Below are positions 1 through 64,000 of a stretch of DNA of 64,000 nt, one piece after another. Numbering within the stretch: position 1 is the first letter of the stretch; each line of letters begins with the position of its first letter. The position numbers and the translations under genes are program-made. The stretch is from Bilabrum cf. latius (Eukaryota), in NCBI GenBank assembly GCA_965178125.1, contig OZ237762.1, positions 744,001 through 808,000 of the forward strand. The letters run 5' to 3'. The notes under the pieces are model-generated. The model was not told the DNA's origin. It was given only the letters and a program-made list of their open reading frames with translations, and did not search any database.

Positions 1-3000
1 TTGGGGTAGCGCTCGCATCATCTTCTACTCGGTTGGCAAGGAGGACTTGCTCTTGCAAGGCCTCCCTCTCCACCTGGCTCGGCATCCTCCATCGCAGCAT
101 GAAACACGATCGACCCACCTGCTCAGACACGTCCTGCACCGAGCCAAGCACCAGGTCGGTCTTGTCAGCCGCATTCTGCACCGGGATGAGCGCCGTCTCG
201 CAAACACGTATAAGTGGCTTGGGCCTCAAGTTCCGTGGAAGCTTCGGCATGCGCACCTACTGCCGTGTACTATCATCGTCCTGCTCGCTTGTCCACTGAA
301 TGCCGCGCTACGTTCCGAGCTCCTTGGCCTGGCCACCAGTAGGTGTCGTGCGAGACTTGTCGACGTTTTCCATCCAGGATCCTTTCCTTCCAATGGTAGA
401 TTCTCTCAACAAGGCTGGCATCTCATCGCTACCGTCACGCCTCTTCCCCCCGCCCGGCCGGAGGGCCCGAATCCGTTTCACGAGCTCGACGCAATGCCTC
501 ACTGACACTGATTCTTGCATTCCAGAAGTTACTTCAACATTCAGAATACCCTCGAGGATGGGGGCATCCCATCGACCCGCACGAACACCAGCAGAGTAGG
601 CAGTGGGGAAAAATCTAGTCACTGGCAGCGGCTCCCGCTGCAGCTGCTCGCTGTCCGTCCCCAGAAGCAGCATCGACCGAGCGCTCGCTGACAGCACCTT
701 GTACCCCTGGTCCCGACCTGAGAAAAAAATCACGTGCTCGTCACAACGAAGCACATCGATGCCCACAGACAATCGAGGCGCAGACGTGGCCTCATCGGGC
801 GTCGACTCGAGCAGAGAAATGATCACGGGCAATGCAGAACCAGACGATGGAAGCACGAACGACACCTCCGTCTGGTTCAGAGCATCCGAGAAGCCGCAAC
901 GCTGCAGCCGATGCAGTCGCTGGTTGTAGATGCCCCGCACAGGCTCAGGCAGCAGCGTCTGAAACGACAGGCCCGTGATCTGGCTCGTGTTGGCGAAACC
1001 AAACACACGGCACGTCGACGGCGAGGCCGACAGGATCTCGCCCACGCTCCCATCAGCCACGCTCAGCGTCAGGTTGGCGGCGTTGTCGTCCAGCAGGTCC
1101 ACCTGAGGAGCCTCCGACCCTAGCACCACATGCCGCACCGCCTTGGCCCGCTGCCGCGTGTGTCTCTCCTCCAGCCGGTCCGCCTTGTTGAACAGCTCCA
1201 TGGCCGTCAGCGGGTCGTTCATCAGCTCCACCAGGAACTCTGCATACCCACGCGCCACCAGCGCGCCTTGATTCAGACGCAGCATGGTCCGGTACAGCTC
1301 GTCCGTCTTCTGCAGGTCAGTCTCGATCTCCTACCCCACCCCCACCACCGTGGCCAGCTCCAGCTTGTGCCCAGCCAGATGGTCCCACAGCTTGAGGATG
1401 CTGCGCATGGCCGCCACCTTGCTCTCCTGCGCCTGCCGCGACAGCGACTCGAAGATCACGCGGTCCAGTGCCGACAGCTTGCTCGAGTCCGCGCCTTCCC
1501 GCAGCTCCCGAGTGCGCCCGTACACGTACGCCTCCAGGTCCAGAGACGGAGACCGCAGCCGGGCCTGGGCCAGAGCCTGCGCCTCGGCGAAGTTGTTCTC
1601 GAAGCAGAACTGGTGGTAGAACTCCGCCGCCAGCACGTGCGCCATGGCCGTCTGTCCGAAGTGAGCCGTCATCTGCCGGTAGGCCCGCTCTGCCGTGTAC
1701 AGCCTGTGCTCGTCCTCCCTGTGCCTGCGGGTGGCGTACTTCATGTTGGCCAGCCTCCATCCGAAGAATGTGGACTGGTCGATGCTGGCGATGTCCTCCT
1801 CGGGCGACAGCAGGCTTTGCATCACATCGTCCTCATGCCCGTCCTCCCCATCGGCCCCGGCCTGCTTGGAGAAGTGCTTCGTCTGAGCGTCGAGCCGAGC
1901 CATGCTGCCCGCATCGGTGCGCACGGTAGGCGCGTATGCCACGGTACCGGCCCCGTCCAGCATGCCCCCGTACTTGCCGCCATCCTGCACAGACCCGCGG
2001 GCGGGGCCGGGATCCGAGGACTTGCCGCCGGAGCTGCCTCCCGCCACAGATGCTGCTCCTCCCCCTCCACCTGCGGTTGGCAGCTCCTGCAGATACTCAG
2101 CCGCGTCTGCTTGCCGATCTCCGCCCCGCATGCTGCCCATGGTGGCGTTGTCCGCTGTGCGCCCATACTCCGCGTCCTCATCATCGTTCCCAGCGTCCCG
2201 CCCGATGCGGCCCCCGTACCTCGGCCTGCGGCGGATCGGCACGGTGTGCTGCCCCTTGCGGGACTGCTCCACAGACGACCCCCGCGACTCCACCACGCGC
2301 GAGTACTCCTGCATGCGGTGCCGCGCCCACACGTCCAGGTGCACCAGGCTCTCGCACGCCTCCAGGGGAAGAGCAGCGATGAACTGCTCGTGCATGTAGC
2401 ACGCCAAGAAGCCACCGCAGTACGCCAGCACAGACCCAAGGTACAGCAGCAGTGACTGGTCCCCGGTGTCCGTGTAGCGGGCCAGCGCCAGCACCAGCGT
2501 ACTCCACAGGAACACGCATGCGAAGCCAGCCTGCATCGCATTCATTCCCGGGTGCACGAACGGCAGGTACCGCACGGCCATCCCCAGCCAGGCGGCCCCG
2601 GCGAGGAGCAGCAGGACGACGAGGACCCACGAGTCGAGGACGAAGTCCCTGAAGACGCTGTAGCAGAGCACGAGGGCGACCTTGATGAGGAGCATGGCGG
2701 CGTCCATCTGGCCGTGGCTCTTGGCGCCCCACGACTTGCTCGCGGGGTTGCGATCAACTCGAACAGCGACGAAAAAGGTGAGCAGCGCGTGGTACAGGAC
2801 GAACACGAGCGCCATTCCAACTCGAACAGCAACTACAGCTGGATCCGTGCATTGCATGTTAGTTTGTAACCACTCTGCTGGTTGAGCTGCTGTTTCATGG
2901 TTTGAGCAATGAATCGCGTACGCTGAAATTGTCGCGATCGGCAGCATGAGTACGGACACGGCCAGGCGACCAAGCTGTCGGGCCAACAGAGAAGTTATCT

Positions 3001-3520
3001 CCTGTATTGAGCTGGAAGATCCTCTACTCAGAGCTGCGTTACCATAAAACTAGCAAGAATGATACAATGTTGGTGTATTGATGGTGAGCGCAAAACCAAA
3101 TGGAAATTCCGCTTCGGCCTTACCGGAAGAAAAGCATGCAGCCAATAAGATTAGCATCCATGCAATCGAAATTGGAAGCAATACATAGTATGCTGCGATA
3201 GCAGAGCTGTTGGTGAAGTAGCCCCCAGAAATAAAACTGAGGACAGTCCCCGCCCAATGCGTCGACGTTGCGTCCCACTCGGACCCAGAGTAGTAGGGTA
3301 CTGCAAATGAAAGCATTTGCAGGCTCTGAAGTATATACATGAGAATAAATTCAAACTTGACGACTTTCGTGTCCTTCGCAAGCTCAAACGCAAATTTTCG
3401 CAGAGCAAGATGCGAAGACTGCATCCAGCCTACGGACCCAAGGTTCGAGTCTTCGAGGTTCACGGGCAACGGGAAGCCACTTCGCGCCCCAACGGCTTGA
3501 AACTGTTCATGCACACCCAT
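1..3520 (-). CDS. TmcB/TmcC-like multi-TM + TPR-like + PAS-domain membrane protein, paralog A (runs off the left edge)
   Basis: ORFs 3050..3520, 1331..2986 and 308..1285 join in one frame when TAG is read through, with a phase-1 intron at about 3034-3123 (G|GTAAG...AACGCAG|). Hydrophobic N-terminal helices, helical YAEFLVELMND segment, PAS-like GEILSASPSTCRVFGF...LLPEPVR. Near-identical to paralog D. Confidence 0.75.
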
Positions 3521-3574
3521 AAATAAACCCGCCGTGTCTAGAGGGCGGTATTCTGTAGAGCCACGTCTCCTTAA

Positions 3575-4358
3575 GAGAGAGAATATAATATGTCTGAGTC
3601 AAAGCACAATCCTTAAGAGAGAGAGAGAGAGAAAATAGAGTTTTCGCACGCAATTCAATACCAGAGACAATCCGAGGACTGCCACCAAAGTAACGCGCAC
3701 CTTAACAGGGGACCCAGCTGTACCCGCGTTGGCGGAGCCAGTCAGGACCTGAAAAGGCCTCTGAAGAAATAGTTGGTCTGGTTAAGACCGATACATGCCT
3801 AGGACCCGTGTCCTAAGCGCATCGCGTTGAGATCTCCTGGGAGTCAGACCCAGTCGAACGTCCGCAGTGAGGGAGCATGCGCGAGGAAGGCCTGGCGAGG
3901 CGTGAGGCGTTCAGCCTCTCGCCACCAGACCGCCACATAGTCCGCCTCTAGGACTTGTTGCCTGCTCCAGATCCGGGAGCGTGCTAGCCTTGCCGTTCCC
4001 TTCGCCCAGATGCGTTCTAGCACCTGAAGCTCCTTGCTGAGGGCGCAACGGCCCAGCGTTCCTGTCATCCACTCTCCGATGAACTAGTTCTCGGAGGGAT
4101 TCAGTATGTGTCCGAGCGGGTGGGCTCGGATTGCAAGGTCTCGGGCTGTTGGGCTGCCCGAGCTGAGTTGTTCAGCTACGCACAGTTGGCAGGACTACAA
4201 CCCCTCGATGGCTCGTCCGAAGCTCTCATTGGCCCTCTGCTACAAGCGTCGGATTGCACGTCGGCACCGTTCTTGGAGTTGTTCGAGGGTGCCTTGGACG
4301 ATAGAGAGCTCCAAGGAGTCTGCGTCCCCTCGGTGTTCCTGTGTCAGCACCTGCTCCG
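3575..4358 (-). mobile_element. 5'-truncated retroposon-like insertion with (TC)n 3' tail
   Basis: Absent from the duplicated empty site at about 31661 (ccttaa^acgatc). Flanked by TTAA on both sides. The minus strand is one open frame with in-frame TAGs ending at TGA 3844, followed by a UTR and TC repeats. No diagnostic domain recognised. Confidence 0.55.
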
Positions 4359-12756: not shown

Positions 12757-15700
12757 TCACGCCTCCCCAAGCTGCATTTTCGAGAGCTCGGCCAGAAGCG
12801 CTTGCTGCGCCCTTGGGGTTGCTTCCCAGACGGCGGTGGGCAGCACCCGGACCGCTTGCCAGGCAGCCCGCACAGGGAGAGCGAGCCGCTCCGGCGCGCC
12901 CCAGTACGCGTACGCCGTGAACAGTAGCGCCGCAGCGAGCATTGCCGAGGACGTAATCAGAATGAGCCGAAACCCATCTGTGTTTACAGCGAGCGCCTCC
13001 CGCGCGTACCGGCCACTACCTCTCTCCAGCGCCACTCTGACATGAGGATACACGATCTGAATCATCCCGAACACCTTCACAATAAAGATCTCAGGCTGGG
13101 ACAGCATGAAGAGCGATAATCCGCTCTCTAGGTCGGGGTCTGGCAGGCTCAGGCGAATGGAGCGCTGCAGCCGGACGATCTGAATGGCTGCGTTCCTGAT
13201 CCCATGCGTCAAGATCTGGCCACCCACTTCGCTGCACTCGTCATACAGGTCCGAACCGTAGCAACCGTCGTCCAGCATGATTCGCCTCGCTACTACATCC
13301 TCCACAGGACCCAGCTGATTCTCCAGTCCGGTGGATTCGTCCACGAACGTCGCCCCAAGCACGATTCTCTCGCTGGTCTGCAGGATCCTTTCCTCCACGA
13401 TCTGCATCTCATCGATCAGCCGAGACCTTGTTAAATTGTTGGTAGCGAACATGAATTCGCCAGCCAAGAGGGTAGTCCTCACGAGATCACTCGCCAGTCG
13501 CTGGGAAGACACCAGCCTCTCGTTGGCAGCGATCACGCGGTTCAGCATGCTCGCAAAAAGGCTTATCCGCACGATCACCCAGGCGAACATGAGCATCACG
13601 GGGATAGATATTAGCATAGTCTGCACCGGCACGAAGGACCAGGTGTCGCTAAACCGGCGCTGGCCTTCCTTCTTGCCCCGCTTGAGGCGAGACCTCTGAC
13701 GGTTCGACCTCAGGATACCCTGCCTCTGCTTGGAGGACCCACGGTTGGGCTTGTCCGCTGGGGCGCTCCTTGAAGGAGCCAGTATCTGAGGGGTTGGCTC
13801 GTGCCCGGAATCGTTGTTATGGCTCCCTTCTCCGCCCTGCTCGATTTCATCCGTTGCCTGGACGCCAGGGCAGCTCGAGTCACTCGAAGTCTTCGGCTCG
13901 GAGCGTTCTCGGCCCGTCACACGGTCGTGCGACCCGGCTGCAGGCACGTCTGCTTCTGCCGCGGAGTCGCTGTCAGTGCCAGTGCTTTCTTGGGGGTCAT
14001 CGTGGGCAACATCCTGCCCGACCGCCGCATCTTGCCCGGATTGCTCGCGCGATTCTGCGGCAATGCTGAGAGCAGGCGTGCCCAGTTCGTCGTTGTCTTC
14101 GTCGTACGGCGCCACGGTGGAGTCGTGCGCTGATCGACCGCCCGAGGACGCCTCCCGTGGATGAACAGAGGAGCCATGCGAAGCAGAGCGACGCCCCCGG
14201 CCCCTACCTCTCTCTCGATGGGACTCTGCTTGCTTCCTCCCCTTGCTTTCAGACCCCGCATCGTCGAATCCCTCCTCGTCGAGGATGTCCTGCAGGTCGT
14301 TGTCATCGTCCTCCTCCTCCATGTCGTCTAGCTGGTTCGCCAGCTTGGTGAGTCGCCTTAGAGTCCGTGCCTTGAGCTTCTTTGCGGTCCCTGACGGCAC
14401 CATAAACACGATCTGAGCCACCCGGACTGTCTTCTCTCGGATAGAGTTCAGCGCTCGGTAGATCAGGACCAGGAACACTCCGAGCGAAATGAACAACAGG
14501 GCGGCGTAGATCGCAGCAAAGGTCGCGAGTGATTGGTTGAACGAGTCCACAACGTCGAGTTGCCGCAGGGACATGCTCTGATTCATCGCACGCATGTACT
14601 CCTCCCGGTTGCTTGTAATCACGCCAAAGGTTGGCGAAACAATGTTCATGCTGGCAGTGTCGTTGGTAGCCGCAACCTTTAGCATGATACTGCTAAGGAA
14701 TGTGCCCATCTCTTGCAGGGAAGCATCGAATACCTTGTCCTGGCCAATCGTGGCTGAAGGCTCGACCAGTGTCCACTGCCTGACTCTAGCGTCCTCTCCG
14801 GCGCGGTCGCTGTACAGGCCTCCGTCTGTACCCAGCATCTCGCGCAGTCGCTGTTCATGCCGGTTCGAATTCACAACAAAGTCTTCAAACTCGGCACGGA
14901 GTCGCGCGGCGCCACGGGACGGAAAGATGCCAGCTTGCTATGCTGCAACGCTCATGTAGATGGAGTCGCACGTCTGGAACGCAAGGAGCTGGTCGGTTGA
15001 CGCAAACACCAACGCGATGGTCTGGTCGAGTGCCATTCGCATAACCTCACCGATAGGCATGGAGGCGATCCCGGCCAGCAGGGCAACTAGGATGGTCACC
15101 ATGAACGTGCACTTGACGGCGTGCACGTGCCGCTCTGCTGCCGTGGCACCGTGCCGTACGGCCTTGGATAATCGGCTCAAGAGCTTCTCTTTCTCAGAGG
15201 ACTGCGATGAATCGCCGTCCTGCTTGTCAGACTCTTGCTCAGCTAGCTGCCTGTTTGTGCCCGCCCCGTGCGCCTCATCTAAGCCCGCATGCATGGCAGC
15301 AGTGGCGCTGATGACAGACGGCCCTGAGCTGTAGGTGGCTAGTGCGTGCGGCTTGGATGCCTTCACAAAGCCAGAGGGCGGCCTCATCCTCGACAGGGTA
15401 TTCATTGACCCATGCCCGTGCCCGTGCCCGTATGAGCCCTGCTGCACCCTGCCCACGAAGCTGCCCCGACGGTGACCCACGTGCTGTGCGGGCCGGCGAA
15501 TTCTGCTTGCGGGCTATTGCATGGGATGGACAGGGCTTGCCGAGCTGAGGATACCGGGCTGCTGGTCCGACGGCTGGTCCCCAGCAGTGATGGCCACTTC
15601 AGGTTCGTCATCTTGGCTGCCGATGTCCTGAACCCCATCATTCGACTGGCTTGGGGCAGCGCTCGCATCACCTTCTACTCGGTTGGCAAGGAGGACTTGC

Positions 15701-20628: not shown

Positions 20629-20776
20629 CGCTCCCCAGGGGGAAATGCGTCCTCAAAGTGGAGCTCAGGTGGTTTAGGCCATTGCAGCTGAAGCGTGAAG
20701 TCCGGTAGGTTCCGGGCCCTCGTACCAAATGTGGTTTCGTGATAGCGTGCGTTTTTTAGTTGATTTCACAAAACTT

Positions 20777-24616: not shown

Positions 24617-24629
24617 TTTCACAAAACTT

Positions 24630-50041: not shown

Positions 50042-53000
50042 TCACAAGTCCTTTGCGATCGCGGCGCCCGCGGGTCCCCCTGCGACACCCAGCTGCATCC
50101 TGGTCAGCTCCTTCCTGACCCCCCTCTTCATCTCCGGAAGTGCGTTTAAGACTCCGGGAGGCAGCACCATGATCACCTGCCATGCAGCACTCAGCGGCTG
50201 GGCCAGCTTGTCTGCGGCGTTCCAGTACGACAGCGCCACGACCACCGCGATGACGGCAAGGGACGTCCCCAGGACAGCATCGTTGATCCTGAGATTTCTC
50301 CGAATACGGTCTGCTGAATCGACAGAGTAGGCCTCTGCCACGCGGGCAAAGGAGTCCCGCAGGTGCGGCTGGATCACGTCCGACATCAGTACGAGGTTGC
50401 GTAAGAACGCCGACAACTGTGGCACGGTGCCAATGACCAAGTCGGGCTGAGGCTAGGCATCGAGGACAGCCCGCTCCACCCTAATCATTGCGATCAGTGC
50501 ATTCCTAGCCCCAGTCCGCAGCACGCCATCTGAAATCTCCCTGCACTCATCGTACACCGTAGAGCCGAAGCAGGCGTCTTCAAGCATGATGGCCTTGCCA
50601 ACTTCGTCATCAATTGGCTGCATGTTTGTCTCTAGGCCTGTGGACTCATCTGTGAACCGCCCCCCCACGACGACCCTCGAGCTCGTCTCAAGGAGCCTGC
50701 CCTCCAGGTCCTCGATCTCAGCCCGCAAGGCGTTCCTGCTCACGTTGGACTGGAGGAATATGAAGTCAATTGACTTTCGAACCAGTCGAACCGAGTCCAT
50801 CGCGAGCCTCTCTGTGGTCACCAGCCGCTCGTTCGACTGCTGCACGGCGCGCAACAACAGCGCGATGCTGAGGACGAGGAAGATGACCCAGATAAATGAC
50901 AGCGCCACCGGGACCAGGAATCCACCGGTGGACCGCCAGGTGAAGTCCCACGTGTCGTTGAACGGCCTCTACTTCAGCACTGCTCGCCTACGGTTGCGCC
51001 CGTGCCGGCTCCGGCCCCCAACGCTGCCAGACAGCCGCCTCTACACTGACTACCCCTGCACGCCCACCAGACGAGCAGGAGACAGAAGCGCCTTGCCAGT
51101 CGCGCCATCGACCGGTTGAAGTGCAAGAACATCGTGGGGCCCCCCTTCGATGGCCTGCAGGCTGCCCTCCAGCCCGCTCGAGGCCTCCATGGAACCACCG
51201 GCAACCAGCGAGTCGCCTTCCGGCCCACCCTCCTGCGCGGGCTACTCCTTGCGCTCCTGCGAGACCATGGCCTTCCACTTGGCCTAGTCTCGCTTGAGCT
51301 TCTCTTCCGTCTCGGCTGCGTTCGTGGGGGCGGCGAAAGACATCCTGGAGACGATCTTGCCGTCTTGGGCGGTCTGGGTGCCTCCGGTGCCGTCTGATCC
51401 CGACGCGATGAGAACTGCGCTCGAATCAGGGGTGTGGTTCCCGGTGGCAAACTATGCCGCCCCAGCTGCACCCCCGCTTTGAGATATCCCCCCTCCCGCT
51501 TTATCGTCGTTGTTCAGCGTCTGCGCGATGGTGGTCTCGAGGTCTTCTTCCATGAGTTTCCTCCTCTCGTCCTCCTCGTCCCTTCCACCGTCCTCCTCCA
51601 GCTGGTTCATCGTGCGGGCCAGTCGGCTAGAGGCATGCTTTCGGAGGGCCTTGGCGACTTGCTGCGGCATGAAGAACATGAGCTCCACGATGCGAGCCGA
51701 GCGAGAGCGCAGGGACGCGATCGCGCGGGCGAAGAGCACGGCTGACACCGCGAGGGCCAGGATGAAGCAGCCGAGTCCCACCACACCCACAATGAGCTGG
51801 CCCCGCTGAAATGATGTCGAGACATCCACCTGCCGCAGGGATAGGCTCTCGTTGACGGCCTGGAGATACGTCTCGGAGTTGGTGTTCAGCGTGGAATAGC
51901 CCCGGTCCCCAAACGACAGCGCAGGCACCTCCGGTGCGGCAGCCAGGAGCATGGTGCTGCTGAGGAAGGAAGACATCTGCAGGAGAGACTGGTTGTAAGA
52001 TTCTGCCCGGCTGACGCCCACTGCAGGCTCGGTGACGGTCCACCGGGCCACCTTCGCGTCATCGAAGCCCCTCCTCGCGTTGAGCTGCGGAGTTGAGTCC
52101 TGTAGGATCTTCACGATGCGTTCGTGCTCCACGGCCACAGGCTTCAGCTGGGCATATTCCTCGTCCACAGTGAGGGCAGGAGAGATCCCGCCTTGCTGTG
52201 ATGCGATGCTCCTGTACAGCCCGTCGTAAATTTGGAATTGCAGGCCCTGCTCAGCGGAGAGATAGAGCTGGTTGGATACCTCCTGCAACGACTCACCGAT
52301 GCTACGCTGGACAAAAATAAAGGCGATTCCCATGGCCAATATGGCCACCACGGTCGACCGGAAGGTCCACCGCACCACATTCACCTCTGCGTCAGTCGTA
52401 GCACTTCGAGTGTGCAGTATCTTGGCCAGCTAGCCCGTCAGCCACGAGCGGTTTGACTGCACGGACCCGGCCCCGGGCGCGTACATCCCGGAGGCACCAT
52501 CCCGGAAATTTGTACCCTAGGCTCTTGGCCCTCCATGAGATTGGCGTCGCTTCGTGAGTGTCCCGCTGCCGTGGCTGCCCCCGGCTAGCATTGGGTGTCC
52601 CCCGTCTGCTCTAGAGAAAGGGTCGATGGGGCTCTGGCTAGGCCTGCGGGCGGATGGCGAGTCACTACCACTGCCGCTTTTCGCTTCGCCGAGTGAATCT
52701 CCCTCCAGGCCTTGGAGGCCCTTAATCACCTGAATGCCCGGGCCGGAGGATCCGACGCTCGGGTGTTTCCGCAGAGCCGTCGCAGACGTGGTGGGGTCAG
52801 CAGTCGCGCCGGATGTAACCGATTGTGCCACGTTTCCGATCACCGCGTTTGCCGCGTGGGCCGACAGCCCCCTCACGGGCTGCTCCCCCGATCCGGATCC
52901 TGGGTTGCTCGAGGAGAACGATTTTGCCTCGTCCTCGGCTCCTGGAGTGCTTGATGCCACAGCAGTCAGGTCACTTGGCCTACCATCGCCGGCGCCAGTT

Positions 53001-56000
53001 CCCCCGGCACCTCCCATTTCGGCAATGCCTACACCATCGACTTCCTCGACATCTGGCTACATCCTCGTCAGGAAGCTGCTCCTCTTTGAACCCTTCACAC
53101 TCTTGATGCGGATCACTGGGGTCTTGGTAGAAGCGCTAGCCCCATCTGCTGCTTTCCCACCCGACCCCTCTGTAGGTTGATCCTCCGCATCGGCCTCGCC
53201 GCTGTCCTTTGAGGTGCTCCTCGACCGGTGCCTGTGCCTCGCCTCCAGACCATACCCCTGCTACACCAGCGACTTGCGGACGGCCTGCCTCATGGCCTGG
53301 GCCTCCCCCTGGCTGGGAGCTCGCCACCGCAGCATGTAGGCCTCCTGGCCCACGTCCAGGGCCAGGTCCTGCACGGAGCCAAGCACCACAGCGCTTGTTC
53401 CCTGGGCCGTCTCGACGGGGATGAGGGCAGTCTCGCCCAGCTGCAGGACGGGTGCGAGCCTCAGCTCGGGGGGAAGGTCAGGCACCTCGATCGTCTCTGT
53501 GGTGCGCACGGCGCCGGAATAGCCGGGTCGAGGAGCTCTCGTCTAGAGGTTGGAGTGGGCCTTGTGCAGCTGCTGCTCGTTCCCTCCGTCGATAGGAGGC
53601 AGCGTCTGCTTGCTCCCGCTGGTACTGCGGCTGCTATCCAGAAGCAGCCTTCTAGTGGATGTGGTGAGGCCTCGCATGGCTGCCAGGGAGGGGTTCCCCT
53701 TGCTCCTCGTGGTCTTCCTGGCTAGCTCGCTGGGCTCCCCGCTCTCACCCGCCAGGTGCCTCTCGATCTTGAGGGCGATCTCCTCCAGCTCTGCGATAAT
53801 TGCTGCGTCCTCGCTCCTCCCAGACGTGGGCTAGCTCGGGCTGTCCCCTCTCAATATGGCCAGCATCACGGACACAGCCTACAGACCAGGGTCATACATG
53901 GTGCCATCCATCGTCGGGAAGCACTAGGCCATCTGGATTGGCTCCCGCTGCAGCTGCTCGCTGTCAGTGCCCAGCAGCTGCATCGACCGAGCGCTCGCTG
54001 ACAGCACCTTGTACCCGCGCCTCTTGCCCCCGAAGAAGATCACATCCTCCTCACACTGGAGCACATCGATGCCCACAGACAGGCGAGGCGCAGATGTGGC
54101 CTCATCGGGCGTCGACTCGAGCAGAGAAATGATCACCGGGAGAACCGCACCAGAAGACGGCAGCGCAAACGACACCTCCGTCTGGTTCAAAGCATCCGAG
54201 AACCCACACCGCTGCAGCTGATGCAGCCTACGGCTGTAGATGCCGCGGATCGGGTCGGGCAGCAGCGTCTGGAACTTGAGACCGATCAGCTGCTGGGTGT
54301 TGTTGTAGCCGAGCATTCGGCACGTCGACGGCGAGGCCGACAGGATCTCGCCCACGCTCCCGTCAGAGGCACTGACGGTAATGTTAGCCGTTGAGTCGTC
54401 GAGCTGGTCCACTGTGGGGGCCTCGGAGCCGAACACCACGTGCCGCACGGCCCTGGCCCTCTGCCGCGTGTGTCTCTCCTCCAGCCGGTCCGCCTTGTTG
54501 AACAGCTCCACAGCCGTCAGCGGGTCGTTCATCATCTCCACCAGGAACTCCGCATACCCACGCGCCACCAGCGCGCCTTGATTCAGACGCATCATGGTCC
54601 GGTACAGCTCGTCCGTCTTCTTCAGGCCAGTCTCGATCTCAACACCGATGCCCACGACCGTGGCCACGTCGGGTCGGTCGTCAGCCAGGTGCTCCCACAG
54701 CTTGAGGATGCTGCGCATGGCTGCCACCTTGCTCTCCTGCGCCTGCCGCGACAGCGACTCGAAGATCACGCGGTCCAGTGCCGACAGCTTGCTCGAGTCA
54801 GCACCCTCTCGCAAACCCCGAGTGCGCCCGTAGATGAAGTACTGGAGGTCCAGAGACGGAGACCGCAGCCGTCCTTGTGCCAGGGCCTGCGCCTCGGCAA
54901 AGTTGTTCTCGAAGCAGAACTGGTGGTAGAACTCCGCCGCCAGCACGTGCGCCATGGCCGTCTGTCCGAAGTGAGCCGCCATCTGCCGGTAGGCCCGCTC
55001 TGCCGTGTACAGCCTGTGCTCGTCCTCCCTGTGCCTGCGGGTGGCGTACTTCATGTTGGCCAGCCTCCATCCGAAGAAGGTCCCGTCCAGCTCATGCATC
55101 ATCTGCATGCGCCGCCTGGCCCTGTCCTGCCCCTGCCTCGAGTCCACCAGCAGCCCCTCATCCTCGGCATCATACAGGCCTCCCTGGCCGCGAGTCGGAG
55201 CCACCACGGAGCCCCGGCCCCTGCCAGCGCGCGCACTCGTCAGCATGTTTCCTAACCAGGCCGGGGGCTGCTGCATTGCCTTAGTGACTGCTCCAATGGC
55301 CCCTGTTGCGGATCCTGCGAGGACATTGCCCGTGCGCCCCGGCATCTGCGCATCTGCAGGGGCGGGTTTCAGAGACCTCAACGGAGCACCGTACCTGGGC
55401 CTGCGGCGCCTTGGAACGGCGTGCTGCCCCTTGCGGGACTGTTCCACAGACGACCCCCGCGACTCCACCACGCGCGAGTACTCCTGCATGCGGTGCCGCG
55501 CCCACACGTCCAGATGCACCAGGCTCTCGCACGCCTCCAGGGGAAGAGCAGCGATGAAGAACTCCCGCATGTAGCACGCCAAGAAGCCACCGCAGTACGC
55601 CAGCACAGACCCAAGGTACAGCAGCAGCGACTGGTCTCTAGTTCCGGTGTAGCGGGCCAGCGCCAGCACCAGCGTGCTCCACAGGAACACGCACGCGAAC
55701 CCAGCCTGCATCGCGTTGATGCCCGGGTGCACGAACGGCAGGTACCGCACGGCCATCCCCAGCCAGGCGGCCCCGGCGAGGAGCAGCAGGACGACGAGGA
55801 CCCACGAGTCGAGGACGAAGTCCCTGAAGACGCTGTAGCAGAGCACGAGGGCGACCTTGACGAGGAGCATGGCGGCGTCCATCTGGCCGTGGCTCTTGGC
55901 GCTCCACGACTTGCTCGCGGGGTTGCGGTCGATATACACCGCGGAAATGAAGACCGATAAGAAGCTGAAAACGATGAGAAGCAGCGCAAGGAATATTCGC

Positions 56001-56744
56001 ATGATGATCGGTCCTGCGCTCGTGCACTCCATCCCAGAGCCGATCCAGGTTCCGTCGCCCGAAGTTCTCTCCACCCCTGGACATGCCAGAGACCGAGCGA
56101 TCACAGTGGTGAACGGAAGGAACAGAGTTGTAGTTGTTAGGGTTGCCACTGATCGCAGAATTTTCAAGATGACTTCGCTTTGCGGTGCATCGGCAACGAA
56201 CCGCCACGCTGCGGAAAGATTGTAGGACTCAAAACCGAACAAACTATGGTCCCAGCTGGCTTGTGGCACCCAAACGTCGATTTTAGTCATTTGTATCTCT
56301 CACCAACGCTGATGGATAGTCCAACGAACAGACTCGTCCAGAGTATCGATAGTACCAGCACGGCGACAAACAGTGTGAACAGGGATGGCCTTCCAATGAA
56401 GTCACCAGAGACCACATCAAGTGTGAGGGCCAGGGGCTCAACTGCTGTATCTTCCCAAGGAAGCTAAGCAGCGCTGTTGATTGGGAAATTCAGGACTTGC
56501 AACGCATCGATCGCCTGCGGTAGTAAGTAGCGGACCGGAGATGCGAAGCTAAGATGTGCAAATCCTGACCTTCAACACAATAGCCCAGGGGCAGATGGAA
56601 TCTCACCATGAATATTATCAGTGAACGCTGCTCTGCATCGATCTTCCTATTCATAATGAAGGCAAAACCGAAGAGAGAGTCCAACAACAGCTCGCCGATC
56701 GATGTCTATCCCTTCTCGCCGTTCACAGCGGCTATAGAAGACAT
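50042..56744 (-). CDS. TmcB/TmcC-like multi-TM/TPR/PAS protein, paralog G (most divergent, about 2,200 aa)
   Basis: ATG at 56744, intron at about 56516-56607. ORFs 53924..56290, 53261..53509, 52517..53017, 51452..52384, 50453..50908 and 50042..50440 share one frame. The junctions I checked are TAG. Ends at TGA. Confidence 0.75.
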
Positions 56745-57004: not shown

Positions 57005-57780
57005 ATGCCACTTTCACAGGATGAAATTGATGCATGCCGAGAGACATTTCAAGCTTTTGATGCTGACAGGTCGTGAGTTTTGACAATATTTCACTCGGTA
57101 TGAAGGAACTGATAGAAATCAATGATAGAAATCAGCGGCCACACATTGCCACAATACTGTGCCCGCAGAGGTTTCATCGAGGTATGGGAGCTGCGACAGG
57201 TAATGGAAGGTATGAATAAGTTGTCGCTTCACTATGGAGGTTGTAGTAATACCGTGGAAGGCAACATGAAAGTTGCCCCCATACAAGAAATAAACCATGC
57301 ACGCATTTCCAGCCGAATATCGCAGCCATGGACCAAGCTTTGACAGATGAGGAGCTATTCTAGCTCATCAGCGAGGTGGACGAGGACATGTCAGGAACAA
57401 TTGGTAAGTTTGGAGGCTTAAACCCAACGGAAATGCTTGGTGTAACCGCACTACGAGTATCGTCCGTCCGTCCATGCGTGCTCTCCGCAGATTTTGGCGA
57501 GTTTTTGCACGTAATTGAGGCCCAAAAGGAGAAAGCAAACCGCTTCAGCGAAGAGACTGACATGATTGATGCCTTTGTCGCCTGTGGCGGTAGCAACGAT
57601 AAGAGCGGCCACGTCAGGAGGGACAAGCTGGTCAAGATAATCAAGGACGATTTCGGGTTGTAGATAGACATCGAAAAACTCATCGATGCCGTGGACGTAG
57701 ACGGTTCCGGCGAGATCGAGTTCGAGGAGTTCTCGAGGCTCTTGTCTTCTGGGTCCTCGGGCGCCGTCGGTGCCACGTGA
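57005..57780 (+). CDS. Calmodulin-like EF-hand protein, outer-arm dynein light chain LC4 (18 kDa) type; 4 exons
   Basis: Exons at about 57005-57072, 57169-57209, 57326-57403 and 57491-57780: FDADRSGFIEVWELRQVM...ELF*LISEVDEDMSGTIDFGEF...DAFVACGG..DKSGHV...FGL*IDIE..DVDGSGEIEFEEF. Ends at TGA. Confidence 0.85.
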
Positions 57781-58317: not shown

Positions 58318-61300
58318 ATGGAATCTGCCGCACGTGACATTGAGTAGCGCATATTCAAATCGCTTTCCAACTCTAAATGTAAGTACACTGACATGCGTAG
58401 TTGCAGAGCCACGCGACTTGATATCGACCAACTGCAACTGCTAGAAATTGGAGCTTCCTTGCCGCAGAGTTGCCTGAGCTTTGCGGAATGATTGACAAAT
58501 CGAAAGATGATGCTGATATTATAGCAGTGCTTGGTTCACTGCAGCGAACAATGTCGTTTTTGCTCAGCAGCGGGGCTCTGCTTGCTGCGCCTGGGGGAAC
58601 CACAGGCGCTGCAGGGAGAAAGCGACCTAGATCAAGCATTTAGCTGTCACATAGCGAAGCTGTCTGCTCTGTTGACACTGAAAGTCCGCGAAACAGGCTT
58701 GCTTTCTGGCTCAGAGAATAGGGAAGCCGAGCACAGACCAAGGTGCTGGAGTTTGTCTTGTCGGGTCTTCGCTAGCTGCATGATGGCAATGACACCCACG
58801 AACGCTCCCTGCTTGCTGGTCTGACATAGTTGATCTTGTTTGTTCCTAAATCTCAGCGGAATCGAGTCTCTGGGAGGAACGAGAGAGGCGAGCCTATTGC
58901 AGCCGAGAAAGGCAGCAAGCCAATCGGCTAGCTATTCGAGATAGACCAGCCGCTGCTGGACGCCATCGTCGGCTGCCTGGCCGGGGCATCCGAGGACCAG
59001 CTGGGGCTCGGCATCTTGCAGCTCGCGGAGGAGGAGCTCAGCGATCGCTTCGACGATGTGAGGCTGGCCTACCTCACCGCCATTCGGAACGTGGCCGCTG
59101 CGGCGCACCGGAACGCGAGCAGCAAGGGCGCTTCGGGGCGAACCAGGGAAACCACAGGGGAGAGCAAGAAAAAGGCCCGCAGGGGACAAGCACAGGCACA
59201 GGAGAGCCCTGCACCCGCCCCCCAGACCCCCAGCGAGGTGGCCAGCCAGGTGCTGGCTCGGGCAGACCCCGAGTGGGTAGCCATCCGGCTGGTGCAGCTA
59301 CTGCAGGGTGTGCAGCTCCCCGCGGACGACGAGGAGTGGGGCGAGCGAACCTTCGCTGTCGAGAGCGAACCCGCCAGCTCCGCCGCCTCAGCCGCCGCCT
59401 CATCAGCAGCGGCGGCCAAGGCAACAGAGGAGGCAGCAAAAGCCGAGGCGAGACGGAGGGCCAAGAGGAAGCCAGGGACAAGCGCATCCATGGCAGAACT
59501 CGAGGAGGAGGAAGAGGCGGAGAGGCTGGCGGCAGCATCTGCCAAGGGCAAGGGCAAGGGTAAGGGAGCCGGAGGCAGGGGCGGCAAGGGAGCTCGCCGC
59601 GCGGCGCTGCTCACAGAGCACCGGGCCATGTTCGAGCAGGCCTGGCTGGCGGTCCTTCGGCTGCCCCTGCCCCCCATCATGCTGCAGAGAATCCTGAAAG
59701 ACCTCCCCAACGACATTCTCCCGCACTTCGCCAGGCCCCTGCAGCTGGCGGATTTCCTGAGGGCCGTGGTGGCCTCTGCTCCCAGGTACAAGACCGGGTG
59801 GGCCGCCATGCGCCGGGCCCTCAAGAGGCCCTCCGACGGATCCGGGGCTGTAGCGTCGAGGCCCCTGTCCAGCGAGGCCGAGGTGGCCGCCGCCGATTCC
59901 TTGGAGGAGATCGAGCTGGGTGACGAGGACGAGGGCTCGCCACATGGGAGGGAGGCTGCGGTGAGGGCGACTTGCGGTGTGCTTGCCGTGCGGTCGCTCT
60001 TCGTGCTCGTGAGGAGGCACGGGCTGCAGCACCCCAAGTTCTTCGACGAGATGTACTCGATGCTGACGCCGGCCATGGCGCGGTGCCCCGCCAGGCAGAC
60101 GTACTTTCAGGTGCTGGCCATGTTCCTCAAGTCTGCGGGGCTGCCCGCATACCTGGTGGCTGCTTTCGCCAAGCGACTGTGCCGGCTTGCCATCCGCATC
60201 CCTGAGCCCGGCGTGGCCCTGTTCGCCCTGCCTCAGGTGTTCAACCTCGTGTCCAAGCACCCAGTGCTGACCCCCATGATCCACAGGGGGGAGGGGGCGA
60301 GGGGAAGGAAGGAGGCCGTGGCGGCGGCGGCTGGCACGGTGGCATCCGGGCCTGCTTCTTCATCTTCGTCATCTTCGTCGGCTGCAAGCACAACCAGCGG
60401 TCACGACGACGACCCCTTTGCTGAGCTTGAGGACGACCCGGCCAAGTGCTGTGCCATCGAGTCGCAGCTGTGGGAACTGGTCGCGCTGCGAGAGCACTGG
60501 CACCCCATGGTCGCGGCTCGGGCCGCCGTGTTCGAGCGGGACCTGGCACGACCTCCCTTCGAGGCCGCGCGATTCGCGGGCGAATCCTACGAGGCCATTC
60601 TCGCGAGGCACGGGGAACAGCTGCGGCAGAGCATCACCGCGCAGCGGGACCAAGACGCTGGCAGCATGACGGAGGCTGGGCTCGGGGCGGGGTCGGGGGC
60701 GGGGTCTTCCTCGGCGGGAGGGGCCCCGGGCGCTGGCCCCTCGCAGGCCGTGGGCAGCTCGTTGCTGCGCCAGCTGGGCGTGCAGCAGGCGGGCGATGGC
60801 GGTCCCATGCTGGGAGAGGGAGAGTCAATGGACGAGAACGGGCTGATTGCCTTCGCGCAGGGGCTGAGTGCGGGCGATGAGGCGCAGTCATAGGCCCGCA
60901 AGCAGATGCTGGCGCTCATGCAGGCGGCCAAGAGCCAGCTGGGGGGCAAGGGCAGGCCCACCTACGGGCGGAGGAAAGGACGAACGTTCGGTGGGATTGC
61001 CGGAACCCCGGTGAGTCAGTTCCCCGTCGGAGGCATCGAGGCGGGGGAGGTCGTGCCAGCCGTGCCCACGGAGAGGGCGGCGCTGCGGGCAGGTCTCGCA
61101 GGCAGCAGCGACTCGGGCACTGCAGCAGGCGGGAGCAAGGCGCAGCCCATGCTGGTGCCTGAGGTGCCCGCTGGGTCCGCCTCCGAGCAGCTCGAGTCGA
61201 TCAGGGAGGCCGTGGAGCGGGCCTAGGAGGGTGTCCTGCCGCTGCAGCTGGAAGGTCTGTTTGCCTCTGGGTGCAGGGGGGCGGGGGCTGAGGCATCCGA

Positions 61301-61331
61301 AGGTGATGGGGCTGTCACTGTAGAGTGGTGA
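58318..61331 (+). CDS. NOC4: Nucleolar complex protein 4 (CBF/Mak21 family)
   Basis: Motifs ILPHFARPLQLADFL, LPAYLVAAFAKRLCRLA and AIESQLWEL..L..HWHP. Intron 58379-58467. One frame with 9 TAG to TGA 61331. Confidence 0.85.
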
Positions 61332-61474: not shown

Positions 61475-63143
61475 TCATCCGTGCATCGACCCTCCTAGGC
61501 TGCCAGAGGCCCCAGGCCCGTCCCCGTCCCAACCATCCCCGAGGTCCATCGAGCTGCCCTTCCCTCCGATACCGCCATGCGATGCATCCCCACCCCCAGC
61601 CCCTCCTAGCGCCGCCCCGTCCTCCTCCCCTCCCTTTGCCTCTCCTTCTCCATCGTCCCCGATATACTCTATCTCCAGGTCTCCCACAAGCATGGATAGG
61701 TCGAGCTGCACTACATCCCCCCGGGGCTTCACGCCGTCCCATCCTCCGTAGCTTAGAGCAAATGGACCCACGGGAGTGAGCGACTGGCCGTACAGCAGAC
61801 TGGGGCCTGTGCCCAGCAGCGGTGGCCGTATGTATCGCATCGTGCGCATGTCAAGAACCCAGGTGGACCGGTGTGGCACCGCCCTCCCAGCCTTGCGGGC
61901 GGCAGCCGCTGCGGCTTCCTGGGCCGAGTCGTCTGCCTCGCCCGTCTCTAGGGCTTTGGCCTGGCCAGGCCCCCAGCCCCCAAGGATGACCATAAAGTCG
62001 CCCATGACGCAGGTCCCGTGCCCGTACCTAGGGCTCGGCGGGTCACCTGACACTGCGGAGAGAGAGGGCGGGCGAGCGAGGGGTGTGCGAGGAGCGCAGG
62101 TTGGCCTCGAATGCACACGATATGCTGAATAGCACGAGCAAAACATACCAGCGTACGAAAGAGCAAGCGGGGTTGACCGCACCGATTGTGGCAAGCGAAA
62201 GCTATGAGAGACAGACGAGGGAACCATGGATGGATGCGAGGAAGATCTGCGTGCTTTCGCCGCATGCCTGCCAGCCCTCACCTTTCGCAGATGCCCATGT
62301 CATGCTGGCCGTGTCTAGTTCCCTGGTGTCCTTCAAGTACACTGGGTGTCCCTTTGAGTCTACCGCCCACCCGCCAAACAGGATGAGCCTGCCGTCGGGG
62401 GCGACTGCGAGGCTGTGTCCGTGCCTGGCCTGGGGCGGGGTGCCCCCCACGGCGGGCTTGATCCAAGCTCGCGAAGACAGGTCGTACACCCACAGGTCAT
62501 TGAAGGCCACAGAGCCGTCCCAGCCCCCAAACACGACAATCTTGTCCTCCACTGCCACCATCGCCTGTCCAAACCTGCCGAGCGGAGGGGAGGTCGCGGA
62601 GGGCACGACGCTCCACGTCCACTTCTCCACGTCCAAACAGAACATATCATTGTATAATCGACCGTTCGGGCCTTTGCCCCCGAACACATAGACTCTGCGG
62701 AAAGACAAGTGGAGGGCCAATGCGGCAAGTGCTGCTCGACGGACAGCTTCGAGAGACAGCCATGCCGCAGCTTTGGGCAATCCTTACTGAGTTCCTATCG
62801 CTACGGCAGAATGGCCGTATCGTGGGCCTGGTGCCTGACCCCCGCACCTCGGGGAGTGCCAGCAAGTGTCGTGGATATCAATTACTTGGACATCGTTGAC
62901 GTACTGAAACTTCTTGTCGAAGTATGTGCCTCCAAAAATAACAATGAGATTTCCTACGATGCAAGCTGTATGTCCGCCCCGGGCTGCTGGCGCCTTGCCG
63001 CTGATCAAGGGGCGGGACCACTCCCCAAGTGCTTCGGAATCCGGTACGCTCAAGTCCCTAACCTTGCTGAGTTTCTGCACCTTATCGGCAATCTCTGGTG
63101 GAAGCTACTACGATCCAGCTGATAAGCCGGATACCTTTGCCAT
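61475..63143 (-). CDS. Kelch-repeat beta-propeller protein; 3 exons
   Basis: Repeated P..R.GH.......FGG motifs. Introns at about 62695-62787 and about 62054-62281. ATG at 63143 is followed by an in-frame TAG TAG. Ends at TGA. Confidence 0.8.
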
Positions 63144-63291
63144 TTTAGCAATCCTGTGGGCTGCAAATGACGCTGTTGCACTTCCTGCAACGGCTCAGTG
63201 TGCGGTTGCAACCAAATAGTGGCGCCGCGCAGTGTGGCCTTTCGACAAGTTCCGTAATGACATGTGGCAGGCAAGGCCATTCTTCGGATCC

Positions 63292-64000
63292 ATGGCTGGT
63301 ATGGCGCAGCCACAGGGAAACCCAGCCAATGATGGGGGTGTAGATCCAGCTCCTCCACCGTAGATCGAAATCGACGACCAAAGCCAAGCTCGAAAATGCG
63401 CGTTTCCGATCGGTTTTGCTCTGTATGCAATTGTTTCTATTTTGGCGGCTATCGCGGTAGTATTCAACGCACTGGAAACCAGGGAGCAGTTTTACCCGGC
63501 CATAGTTCATCTTGCTACAAATAAGATCAACGTGGCGGTGAGTCACAGCAAAACTACCTGCCATCGTTCGTCCGATCCGGCGGCATCTTCACACGGCGTT
63601 GAACTCCGTATCCCTTCTTCACCTTTCGCAGGTGCTGGGCAACCTTGGCCTTGTGTTTCTCATTTCGACTGGCTTCATGTTTATGCTAATGTTTTTTGGT
63701 CGCATGGAGGACAAGGAGGTCACCCGCATCAACGATTCGGTGCCATACTACGCGTTTGAGATAATATTTGCCCTGACAGTGTTCCGGGAGGAGCTGTCGA
63801 CGCGCGTGATAAGTCTCTTTGCAGTGATGCTAATGAGTCGCGTCTTCCACGTCCTAGCAGAGGCCCGTGTGGACGTGCTCCAGGTGTACAGCCTCCACGA
63901 CATCTGGTGGGTGCACGTGCGGCTGGTCTTTGCCCTGCTCTTCCTGCTGGGCGCGGACGCGTTTCTGTGCACGGTATTCACGTCCTTCGTGATGCAGATG
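63292..64000 (+). CDS. HRD1: ERAD E3 ligase HRD1/synoviolin, N-terminal TM region (partial)
   Basis: REQFYPAIVHLATNKINVAVLGN...FFG...E..FALTVFREE. Intron 63538-63631. One in-frame TAG at 63361. Confidence 0.8.

What the first reader, a model, noticed from the sequence alone, without database searches (positions are those of the whole stretch)
1..64000. Non-standard nuclear code: UAG is a sense codon (best fit Gln), apparently without UAA
Seen: in-frame TAGs occur in conserved housekeeping genes (LC4 at 57361 and 57661, NOC4 x9, kelch, HRD1) and in all Tmc-like paralogs, with homology continuing in frame. TAG aligns to CAG in near-identical paralogs (1331 vs 16981/29421, 15514 vs 27954, 27660 vs 15220). 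It also occupies the conserved Q of the RT motif GVPQGSPLS (21795) and the Q of the paralog motif EG[IV]*LAAF vs QSLQMLSF/DALQVLNF. All 7 host genes with a visible 3' end stop at TGA. TAA was never seen in frame and terminates only two transposon ORFs (42882, 46348). Established: UAA and UAG are usually reassigned together in nuclear codes, and uncoupled codes are rare (for example Iotanema, UAG=Gln). Inference: this may be an independent uncoupled reassignment in a flagellate lineage.
Basis: partly seen in the sequence, partly recalled or inferred. Interest (0 to 1): 0.95.

Follow-up and report, generated by a model that had tools for sequence, protein, structure and literature searches.

The report
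UAG read as glutamine, UAA not
This GC-rich eukaryote, which we could not identify, reads the stop codon UAG as glutamine, ends its genes with UGA and keeps UAA out of its genes, a split of the two codons known from only a few lineages.

Summary
Reading TAG as sense raises the longest ORFs from 931 to 2086 codons.

- **Codon counts.** In 7,768 non-redundant host codons, TAG is as common in frame (47) as out of frame (47, 43). TAA is 0 in frame against 22 and 17 out of frame. TGA occurs only as the last codon.
- **No editing or splicing out.** Spliced RNA contigs from three runs keep the TAGs unchanged.
- **Amino acid.** At 19 well-aligned sites, TAG faces Gln 12 times, Glu 3, Lys 3 and Arg 1. 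These include the reverse-transcriptase QG box and orthologues on related metagenome contigs, which also carry in-frame TAG.
- **TAA as a Gln codon is unlikely.** About 9 were expected and 0 seen, P about 3e-4. Lower-GC relatives also have none.
- **Correction.** One TAA (23316-23318) lies inside a retrotransposon RT-endonuclease ORF that homologues read through. It is either a lesion or a rare read-through.

Whether TAA terminates any host gene is not shown: 7 of 7 visible ends are TGA. No tRNA, eRF1 or 18S is available, so the lineage is not placed.

This scan earlier noted the same TAG-sense, TAA-stop split in a soil giant virus on other DNA.

The parts
50042..56744 (-). TmcE, a TmcB-like membrane/TPR/PAS-type gene of 2,171 codons plus a TGA stop. 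Introns at 56209-56303 and 56514-56605. It holds 17 in-frame TAG and no TAA.
   Evidence: Pfam TPR_TmcB E 3.9e-16. Spliced RNA contigs of X5, X6 and X7 cover it with 0 differences in the listed pieces. The start codon is inferred.
34179..39677 (+). TmcD main exon: 1,832 codons, 12 in-frame TAG, ends in TGA. An upstream exon carries the motif EGV(TAG)LAAF.
12757..18681 (-). TmcB main exon: 1,974 codons, 4 TAG, ends in TGA. The TAA just upstream lies in an intron or non-coding stretch.
25200..31211 (-). TmcC main exon: 2,003 codons, 4 TAG, ends in TGA. Its N-terminal part lies in another frame than in TmcA, so there is a frameshift or an assembly error.
2..3598 (-). TmcA, cut by the window edge: 1,199 codons, 4 TAG.
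57005..57780 (+). Outer-arm dynein light chain LC4: 158 codons plus TGA. Introns at 57073-57168, 57208-57323 and 57403-57489. TAG at 57361 and 57661.
   Evidence: PDB LC4 chains at E 3e-21 and 4e-16. Introns come from RNA joints. The orthologue on L003 has TAG at the first site and CAG at the second.
58318..61331 (+). NOC4 (CBF/Mak21 family): 974 codons plus TGA. Intron at 58379-58467. It holds 9 TAG, and codon 21 is a TAG assembled by splicing.
   Evidence: Pfam CBF E 6.8e-31. PDB NOC4 E 7e-34. RNA joint and contigs. Coordinates.
61475..63143 (-). Kelch-repeat gene: 448 codons plus TGA. Introns at 62053-62281 and 62695-62787. Two adjacent TAG at 63105-63110.
   Evidence: Pfam Kelch families, best E 2.1e-38. 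RNA joints. Model. The two TAGs are not inside the RNA pieces that were listed.
63292..64000 (+). HRD1/synoviolin-like gene, 5' part, running off the window. Intron at 63537-63630. TAG at 63361-63363.
   Evidence: Pfam TPR_SYVN1_N E 1.1e-21. RNA joint.. The start codon is inferred.
20475..24500 (+). Non-LTR retrotransposon ORF: RT, then a zinc-finger and endonuclease-like part. It has 1,341 codons with 12 TAG, one in-frame TAA (23316-23318) and no internal TGA, and it ends in TGA. TAG 21795 is the Q of the RT box. TAG 23223 faces Q in 5 of 5 homologues.
   Evidence: Pfam RVT_1.. Exhaustive protein search. Alignment A2. Box count.

Best explanation
The nuclear code of this organism, and of at least three environmental relatives, reads UAG as glutamine. 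UGA ends every gene seen. UAA is kept out of reading frames as a stop codon would be.

The most likely mechanism is a tRNA-Gln with anticodon CUA, one anticodon change away from tRNA-Gln(CUG). Its C34 cannot pair with the A of UAA, so UAA is not pulled along. An eRF1 that no longer recognises UAG would complete the change.

Shown here: UAG is sense in mature mRNA, Gln is the best-fitting residue, in-frame UAA is absent from host genes, and termination is at UGA.

Inferred, not shown: the tRNA, the eRF1 change, and that UAA actually terminates.
For: **1. ORF lengths.** The longest ORFs are 931, 849 and 845 codons under standard stops. With TAG open they are 2086, 2004, 1975 and 1833.

**2. Frame statistics on 7,768 non-redundant host codons.**
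- TAG: 47 in frame, 47 and 43 out of frame.
- TAA: 0 in frame, 22 and 17 out of frame.
- TGA: 6 in frame, all terminal, against 160 and 141 out of frame.

**3. RNA.**
- Runs X5, X6 and X7 give contigs with GT..AG joints at nine introns. DNA run X1 has none of these joints.
- The contig pieces listed carry 0 differences.
- 28 of 31 TAGs of the 50-64 kb genes lie in those pieces or within the stated joint sides. One more TAG is created by the splice itself. Two kelch TAGs are outside the pieces that were listed.

**4. Relatives.**
- Four metagenome contigs (L001-L004, GC 49-58%) encode 50-73% identical Tmc proteins.
- L003 also carries the neighbouring LC4 and NOC4 genes.
- These contigs carry in-frame TAG at residues that are invariant Q in all five window paralogues.
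- L003 LC4 has CAG where the window has TAG 57661, inside a fully conserved block.
- Of 91 codons in LC4 exon 4, 25 are identical, 54 differ synonymously and 12 change the residue.

**5. Amino acid.**
- At 19 well-aligned independent sites the nearest homologue has Q 12 times, E 3, K 3 and R 1. BLOSUM62 sums are Q 68, E 41, K 32.5 and R 25.
- The RT box has Q in 30 of the 31 pattern matches among 150 homologues.
- TAG 23223 faces Q in 5 of 5 aligned homologues.

**6. TAA is not a synonym of TAG.**
- CAA makes up 0.16 of CAR codons, so about 9 TAA are expected beside 47 TAG. None is seen, P = 2.7e-4.
- In relatives, CAA 30 against CAG 37, with 8 TAG and 0 TAA in 1,719 codons. That gives about 0.009 by my arithmetic.
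- The one TAA in a relative's Tmc frame lies in a GTGAG..CGCAG intron.

**7. Other copies of the retrotransposon.** ORFs called under the standard code on other contigs (P0016 at 93%, P0017 at 92%, P0026 at 57% identity) end exactly one codon before window TAG positions.
Against: - One in-frame TAA (23316-23318) sits inside the RT-endonuclease ORF, which is otherwise intact with no internal TGA and no frameshift in 1,341 codons. Homologues read M, M, V or R at that position.
- No host gene ends in TAA (0 of 7), so TAA as a terminator is not demonstrated.
- The TAG sites in LC4 and NOC4 that could be aligned to solved homologues face K or T, or fall in unaligned regions. The 'housekeeping' TAGs therefore show sense, not Gln.
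- 7 of 19 sites face E, K or R, and CAG is also the transition neighbour of TAG.
- The sample is one 64 kb window with one gene family over-represented.
- There is no tRNA, eRF1, proteome or taxonomic placement.
Confidence: 0.8

Rival explanations
1. This is the ordinary ciliate/dasycladalean-type code 6, in which both UAA and UAG mean Gln. UAA would merely be hidden by the GC-rich codon bias.
For: GC3 of host genes is 0.71-0.77, so A-ending codons are rare. One in-frame TAA exists in the retrotransposon ORF. No host gene ends in TAA.
Against: - CAA, GAA and AAA are all used (55, 78 and 38 times), while TAA is 0 beside 47 TAG. P = 2.7e-4.
- Relatives at 49-58% GC, where CAA is 45% of CAR, have 8 TAG and 0 TAA.
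- Even in the more AT-using retrotransposon there are 12 TAG against 1 TAA, where about 6 would be expected from the CAA/CAG of its RT part. That is about P 0.05 by my arithmetic.
- In-frame TAA is depleted like TGA relative to the other frames.
Confidence: 0.07
2. UAG means Gln and UGA is the only terminator in use. UAA is effectively unassigned or only rarely decoded. The retrotransposon's internal TAA would then be a read-through or slow-decoding site rather than a lesion.
For: - 7 of 7 host genes end in TGA, as does the L003 LC4 orthologue.
- TAA is absent from frames.
- The RT-endonuclease ORF has no other defect in 1,341 codons, although it differs by 7-8% in protein from other copies.
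Against: - Only about 6 independent gene ends were seen. If TAA ended a quarter of genes, 0 of 6 would still happen about one time in five.
- A single nonsense change (TAG to TAA, or CAA to TAA) in one transposon copy is an ordinary lesion.
- A close copy, P0034, simply lacks these three codons.
Confidence: 0.12
3. The TAGs are not translated. They would be pseudogene lesions, be removed by RNA editing or splicing, or be true stops with occasional read-through.
For: TmcC appears frameshifted relative to TmcA. The gene family is repetitive and surrounded by transposon debris.
Against: - TAGs persist in spliced RNA contigs of three runs with no T-to-C change.
- Up to 17 TAGs lie in one expressed gene.
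- No accompanying in-frame TGA, TAA or frameshift occurs in 7,768 codons.
- One TAG is conserved at the same LC4 codon in a relative despite saturated synonymous change.
- One TAG is created by splicing.
Confidence: 0.01

Closest known systems
Iotanema spirale (Fornicata): UAG = Gln, with UAA and UGA as stops (PMC5304391; abstract and passages read)
   Same: Only UAG is reassigned, and it is reassigned to glutamine. No in-frame UAA occurs in host genes once retained introns are set aside.
   Different: In Iotanema, UAA is the predominant terminator. Here every gene end seen is UGA, and UAA termination is not shown. The genome here is about 60% GC with introns of about 90 nt. Relatedness could not be tested.
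The ciliates Protocruzia tuzeti and two phyllopharyngean lineages: UAG = Gln with UAA kept as stop (PMC11687900; passages read)
   Same: The same uncoupled assignment. The paper gives the same rationale, that a CUA anticodon does not read UAA.
   Different: UAA is the most used and UGA the least used stop in the phyllopharyngean species of that study, and their GC is 27-54%. The window has 60% GC, GTGAG..CGCAG introns and a 64 kb stretch with transposons, which does not look like a ciliate macronuclear genome. That last point is my judgement and was not tested.
Rhizarian exLh (UAG = Leu) and Scotinosphaera (UAG = Ser), both with UAA kept as stop (PMC5304391; PMC11687900 passage)
   Same: UAG is uncoupled from UAA.
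   Different: The amino acid differs. Leu and Ser score -41 and -1.5 here, against 68 for Gln.
Code 6 lineages (many ciliates, Dasycladales and relatives, hexamitid diplomonads): UAA and UAG = Gln
   Same: UAG is Gln and UGA is the terminator.
   Different: In-frame UAA is expected in those lineages. It is absent from 9,487 host codons here.
Soil giant-virus contig with TAG sense and TAA stop, noted earlier in this scan (e1-5483482, e1-5483535)
   Same: The same split of TAG and TAA. Its authors proposed an unidentified host that uses such a code.
   Different: That is viral DNA from another genome. I found no link: a scan of viral contigs with the Tmc alignment gave nothing.

Membership tests
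UAG-only-to-Gln nuclear code (NCBI table 15 type; Iotanema-like) | UAG occurs in frame in many expressed genes and translation continues past it | tested here: met
   There are 47 in-frame TAG in 7,768 non-redundant codons, equal to the out-of-frame frequency. Homology continues in frame. The TAGs are kept in spliced RNA contigs.
UAG-only-to-Gln nuclear code (NCBI table 15 type; Iotanema-like) | UAG stands at conserved glutamine positions | tested here: met
   12 of 19 well-aligned sites face Q, and Q has the best BLOSUM sum by 27. The RT box has Q in 30 of 31 matches. TAG 23223 faces Q in 5 of 5 homologues. There are no peptide data.
UAG-only-to-Gln nuclear code (NCBI table 15 type; Iotanema-like) | UAA is not a sense codon | tested here: met
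   TAA is 0 of 7,768 window host codons (P 2.7e-4 under synonymy) and 0 of 1,719 codons in relatives. The one exception is a TAA inside a retrotransposon ORF, which is either a lesion or a read-through.
UAG-only-to-Gln nuclear code (NCBI table 15 type; Iotanema-like) | UAA works as a terminator | tested here: inconclusive
0 of 7 host genes end in TAA.
UAG-only-to-Gln nuclear code (NCBI table 15 type; Iotanema-like) | UGA works as a terminator and is never in frame | tested here: met
   TGA occurs 6 times in frame, all as the last codon, against 160 and 141 out of frame. The L003 LC4 orthologue also ends in TGA, seven codons earlier than the window gene, where the window has GGC.
UAG-only-to-Gln nuclear code (NCBI table 15 type; Iotanema-like) | A tRNA-Gln(CUA) is present, no tRNA(UUA) suppressor is present, and eRF1 is altered in its N-domain motifs | not testable with these tools
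   No tRNA was found in the window or in L001-L004. No Rfam family matched. No whole genome is held.
Code 6 (UAR = Gln) | In-frame UAA at Gln positions alongside UAG | tested here: not met
   The only in-frame TAA faces M, M, V and R in homologues.
Context-dependent stop/sense codes (Condylostoma, Blastocrithidia type) | The reassigned codon also ends genes | tested here: not met
   0 of 7 genes end at TAG. The sample is small.

The most novel reading that the evidence does not exclude
A so far unrecognised, non-ciliate eukaryotic clade runs a nuclear code with a single working terminator. The clade would comprise this organism and at least three environmental relatives spanning 49-60% GC. UGA stops translation and UAG means Gln. 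UAA is neither a normal sense codon nor a used stop. The clade's retrotransposon would exploit an internal UAA as a read-through or attenuation site between its reverse transcriptase and its endonuclease.
Probability: 0.12. Interest if true: 0.85.

Novelty: new member of a known kind. Interest (0 to 1): 0.62.

Why it matters
UAA and UAG almost always change meaning together. According to the papers read here, the known exceptions are a handful of lineages.

A further lineage would add an independent data point on how the two codons can be pulled apart, especially one that is GC-rich, terminates at UGA and has several relatives sharing the code. It would also bear on whether GC pressure and low UAG/UAA use help the change along.

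There is a practical side. Standard-code gene callers cut this organism's genes into pieces. The database holds only fragments that end one codon before a TAG.

The lineage would also be a candidate host type for the giant viruses with a TAG-sense, TAA-stop code noted earlier in this scan.

Tried and rejected
- **Whole genome:** none is held for this window. Codetta-type inference, tRNA and eRF1 searches and 18S placement were therefore impossible.
- **tRNAs and RNA families:** ARAGORN found no tRNA in the window or in L001-L004. Rfam gave no match.
- **Full-length Tmc search:** the near-length protein search found nothing. The 'shorter' search found 11 unnamed metagenome fragments, none with a name or taxon.
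- **Protein atlas:** taxa for the Tmc part and for NOC4 were uninformative, giving Ciliophora/Chlorophyta and Arthropoda/Ascomycota from a few records.
- **Solved structures:** the LC4 TAG sites face K and T, the NOC4 TAGs fall outside the aligned parts, and the RT ORF had no hit. These show sense but say nothing on the residue.
- **Viral contigs:** the scan with the Tmc alignment found no relative.
- **Earlier scan notes:** look-ups by place and by sequence returned nothing for this genome.
- **Sequencing runs:** no listed holder is on record as RNA. The RNA nature of X5-X7 rests on their spliced contigs. The two kelch TAGs were not within the RNA pieces listed, and 118 pieces were not shown.
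- **Self-BLAST of the retrotransposon:** no second copy of the stretch around the TAA exists in the window, so lesion and sense could not be told apart.
- **TAA upstream of TmcB and TmcC:** I considered that these might be in frame. In TmcC the true frame upstream is a different one, and in TmcB the TAA lies in an intron.
- **TAA in the L003 Tmc fragment:** I considered it in frame. It lies in a consensus intron.
- **Literature:** five searches turned up no GC-rich non-ciliate organism with UAG = Gln. Because the organism is unidentified, this does not show that its code is unpublished. Supplementary tables of the papers were not seen.
Full report
**What the window is.** The window is 60% GC eukaryotic nuclear DNA. 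It holds five tandem TmcB-like paralogues, a non-LTR retrotransposon and repeat debris. At 56-64 kb it carries four ordinary genes: outer-arm dynein LC4, NOC4, a kelch-repeat gene and the start of HRD1/synoviolin. No whole genome is held for it. It has no tRNA and no Rfam family.

**Is TAG in frame, and is that more than chance?**
- Under standard stops the longest ORFs are 931, 849 and 845 codons. With TAG open they are 2086, 2004, 1975 and 1833. Opening TAA or TGA instead does not do this for the same genes.
- I built gene models from RNA-supported introns and took a non-redundant host set: TmcE, the TmcD and TmcB main exons, LC4, NOC4, kelch and the HRD1 part. This is 7,768 codons.
- In that set TAG occurs 47 times in frame and 47 and 43 times in the other two frames, so it is not avoided at all.
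- TGA occurs 6 times in frame, each as the last codon, against 160 and 141 out of frame. TAA occurs 0 times in frame against 22 and 17.

**Are the TAGs in the mRNA?**
- One sequencing-run search and one laying were allowed.
- Three runs (X5, X6, X7, from two or three studies) yield contigs that skip nine GT..AG introns of 87-229 nt. The DNA run X1 shows none of these joints, so those contigs derive from spliced RNA even though the runs are not on record as RNA.
- The listed pieces carry 0 differences from the window. The only two differences reported for these runs lie at 53975 and 53979, near a contig end and not at a TAG.
- 28 of the 31 TAGs in the genes between 50 and 64 kb lie inside those pieces or within the stated joint sides.
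- One more, NOC4 codon 21, is a TAG put together by the splice itself (T at 58378, AG at 58468-58469).
- The two kelch TAGs were not within the pieces that were listed.
- Editing or splicing out of the TAGs is therefore excluded for 29 of 31.

**Relatives.**
- A scan of metagenome contigs with the alignment of the five paralogues gave four loci. L001 and L002 are 58% GC and near-duplicates, L003 is 52% GC and L004 is 49% GC.
- L003 is syntenic with the window: a TmcE orthologue 5' end, then LC4, then the NOC4 5' end.
- These relatives also have in-frame TAG, at residues that are invariant Q in all five window paralogues. Examples are the motifs HFG-Q-TAM and L-Q-RCGF on L001 and GL-Q-MLSF on L004.
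- Conversely, window TAG 57661 in LC4 faces CAG in L003 inside a fully conserved block. Window TAG 57361 is TAG in L003 too.
- LC4 exon 4 has 91 codons, of which 25 are identical, 54 differ synonymously and 12 change the residue. Synonymous sites are close to saturated, and the TAG/CAG difference behaves as one more synonymous change.
- The code is thus shared by a clade and is not a quirk of one assembly.

**Which amino acid?**
- I listed 19 independent TAG sites that have a well-aligned non-TAG homologue. The criterion was at least 7 of 13 flanking columns identical, or a copy at least 80% identical.
- The nearest homologue has Q at 12 sites, E at 3, K at 3 and R at 1. BLOSUM62 sums are Q 68, E 41, K 32.5 and R 25, with all others at or below 0.
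- The two strongest sites are in the retrotransposon. TAG 21795 is the Q of the RT box, which is Q in 30 of the 31 pattern matches among the 150 best homologues; the 31st match is a different motif. TAG 23223 faces Q in 5 of 5 aligned homologues.
- Against a simple reading, CAG is also the transition neighbour of TAG. Among the near-identical paralogues A, B and C, TAG faces CAG 3 times, GAG 3 times and AAG once (36 alignment columns hold a TAG).
- The LC4 sites face K and T in Tetrahymena and Chlamydomonas LC4, and the NOC4 sites fall outside the parts alignable to solved NOC4.
- Gln is the best fit. Glu is the runner-up. There is no peptide evidence.

**TAA.**
- CAA is 16% of CAR codons in the host set. 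If TAA were a synonym of TAG, about 9 would be expected beside 47 TAG. None is seen, P = 2.7e-4.
- In the relatives' aligned coding segments (1,719 codons) CAA is 30 against CAG 37, and yet there are 8 TAG and 0 TAA. That is about 0.009 by my arithmetic.
- A TAA that seemed in frame in the L003 Tmc fragment lies in a consensus GTGAG..CGCAG intron. The TAAs just upstream of the TmcB and TmcC ORFs are in an intron and in a non-coding frame.
- TAA is not rare in the local non-coding DNA: 18 in 1,909 nt of introns and spacers.

- TAA 23316-23318 lies in frame between the RT part and the zinc-finger/endonuclease-like part of the retrotransposon.
- An exhaustive protein search with this stretch read by table 6 found homologues P0024, P0025, P0047 and P0028. 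Each runs uninterrupted across that position, with M, M, V and R there. A close copy, P0034, lacks three codons including it.
- The ORF has 12 TAG, this one TAA, no internal TGA and no frameshift in 1,341 codons.
- No second copy of this stretch is in the window. A single nonsense lesion therefore cannot be separated from a read-through site or rare sense use.
- I put the lesion first, because host genes show no in-frame TAA at all.

**Termination.**
- Seven of 7 host genes with a visible end stop at TGA. Six of them are independent, because TmcB and TmcC are near-identical. The L003 LC4 orthologue also ends in TGA.
- No gene ends in TAG or TAA.
- That TAA is a working stop is therefore an inference from its frame avoidance, not an observation.

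**Mechanism.** The usual route is a tRNA-Gln(CUA) plus an eRF1 that no longer binds UAG, as described in passages of PMC11687900 and PMC5304391. [quoted passage not shown] Nothing in the window lets me test it.

**Comparison and novelty.**
- UAG-only reassignment to Gln is already known. It occurs in Iotanema spirale, Protocruzia tuzeti and two phyllopharyngean lineages. UAG-only changes to Leu or Ser occur in a rhizarian and in Scotinosphaera (PMC5304391 and PMC11687900; passages read).
- In Iotanema and in the phyllopharyngean species of PMC11687900, UAA is the main terminator. Here only UGA is seen, the genome is GC-rich, and the introns and contig structure do not look ciliate-like.
- I could not place the organism. 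Tmc relatives exist only as unnamed metagenome fragments, and atlas taxa were uninformative.
- Five literature searches found no matching case. Without a name for the organism, I cannot say its code is unpublished.
- I therefore rate it a new member of a known kind.
- This scan earlier recorded the same TAG-sense, TAA-stop split in a soil giant virus on other DNA. I found no link to it.

**Verdict.** Three points remain open: whether UAA terminates, what the transposon TAA means, and which lineage this is.

Noticed in passing
window 2-3598, 12757-18681, 25200-31211, 34179-39677, 50042-56744: There are five TmcB-like paralogues in 56 kb. About 790 N-terminal residues are almost identical in all five, with hundreds of invariant columns. 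The C-terminal halves are only about 48% identical to TmcE. This pattern suggests gene conversion or a shared recently copied 5' module. The conserved module holds almost no TAG.
   Followed up: partly
window 31100-31700 (minus strand): The N-terminal exon of TmcC is in a different frame from its main ORF, whereas in TmcA the same stretch is continuous. This points to a one-base indel, meaning a pseudogene or an assembly error.
   Followed up: partly
window 58378/58468-58469: NOC4 codon 21 is a TAG that exists only after splicing (T|AG across the 89-nt intron). The joint is seen in RNA contigs of two runs.
   Followed up: yes
window introns 56209-56303, 56514-56605, 57073-57168, 57208-57323, 57403-57489, 58379-58467, 62053-62281, 62695-62787, 63537-63630: All nine RNA-supported introns are short (87-229 nt, seven of them 87-96 nt). 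They cluster near the 5' ends of genes, start with GTGAG, GTAAG or GTATG, and end in CGCAG. An intron with the same signature is in relative L003.
   Followed up: partly
window 20475-25128: The non-LTR retrotransposon has an RT followed by a CCHC-like zinc finger and a restriction-like endonuclease-type region. This R2-like order is my reading; there is no Pfam hit for the second part. Its 3' 500 nt is duplicated in tandem at 85% identity (24052-24552 and 24631-25128). A different endonuclease-like ORF lies just upstream at 19240-20628.
   Followed up: partly
window 46968-47616: A hexamer microsatellite (GCTGGT, about 108 copies, 83% matches) creates long spurious ORFs in several frames.
   Followed up: no
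window 8300-8950, 10230-11520, 40740-42240, 48375-49560: A dispersed repeat whose one strand reads as proline-rich low-complexity 'protein' occurs at least four times.
   Followed up: no
L003 1-4968: This metagenome contig from a 52% GC relative keeps the window's gene order: TmcE 5' end, LC4, NOC4. It also carries a second, oppositely oriented Tmc fragment, so the Tmc cluster next to LC4 is older than the split of the two organisms.
   Followed up: partly
proteins P0013, P0014, P0016, P0017, P0026: Database ORFs called under the standard code stop exactly one codon before TAG positions. Public gene calls for this clade are therefore systematically truncated.
   Followed up: yes
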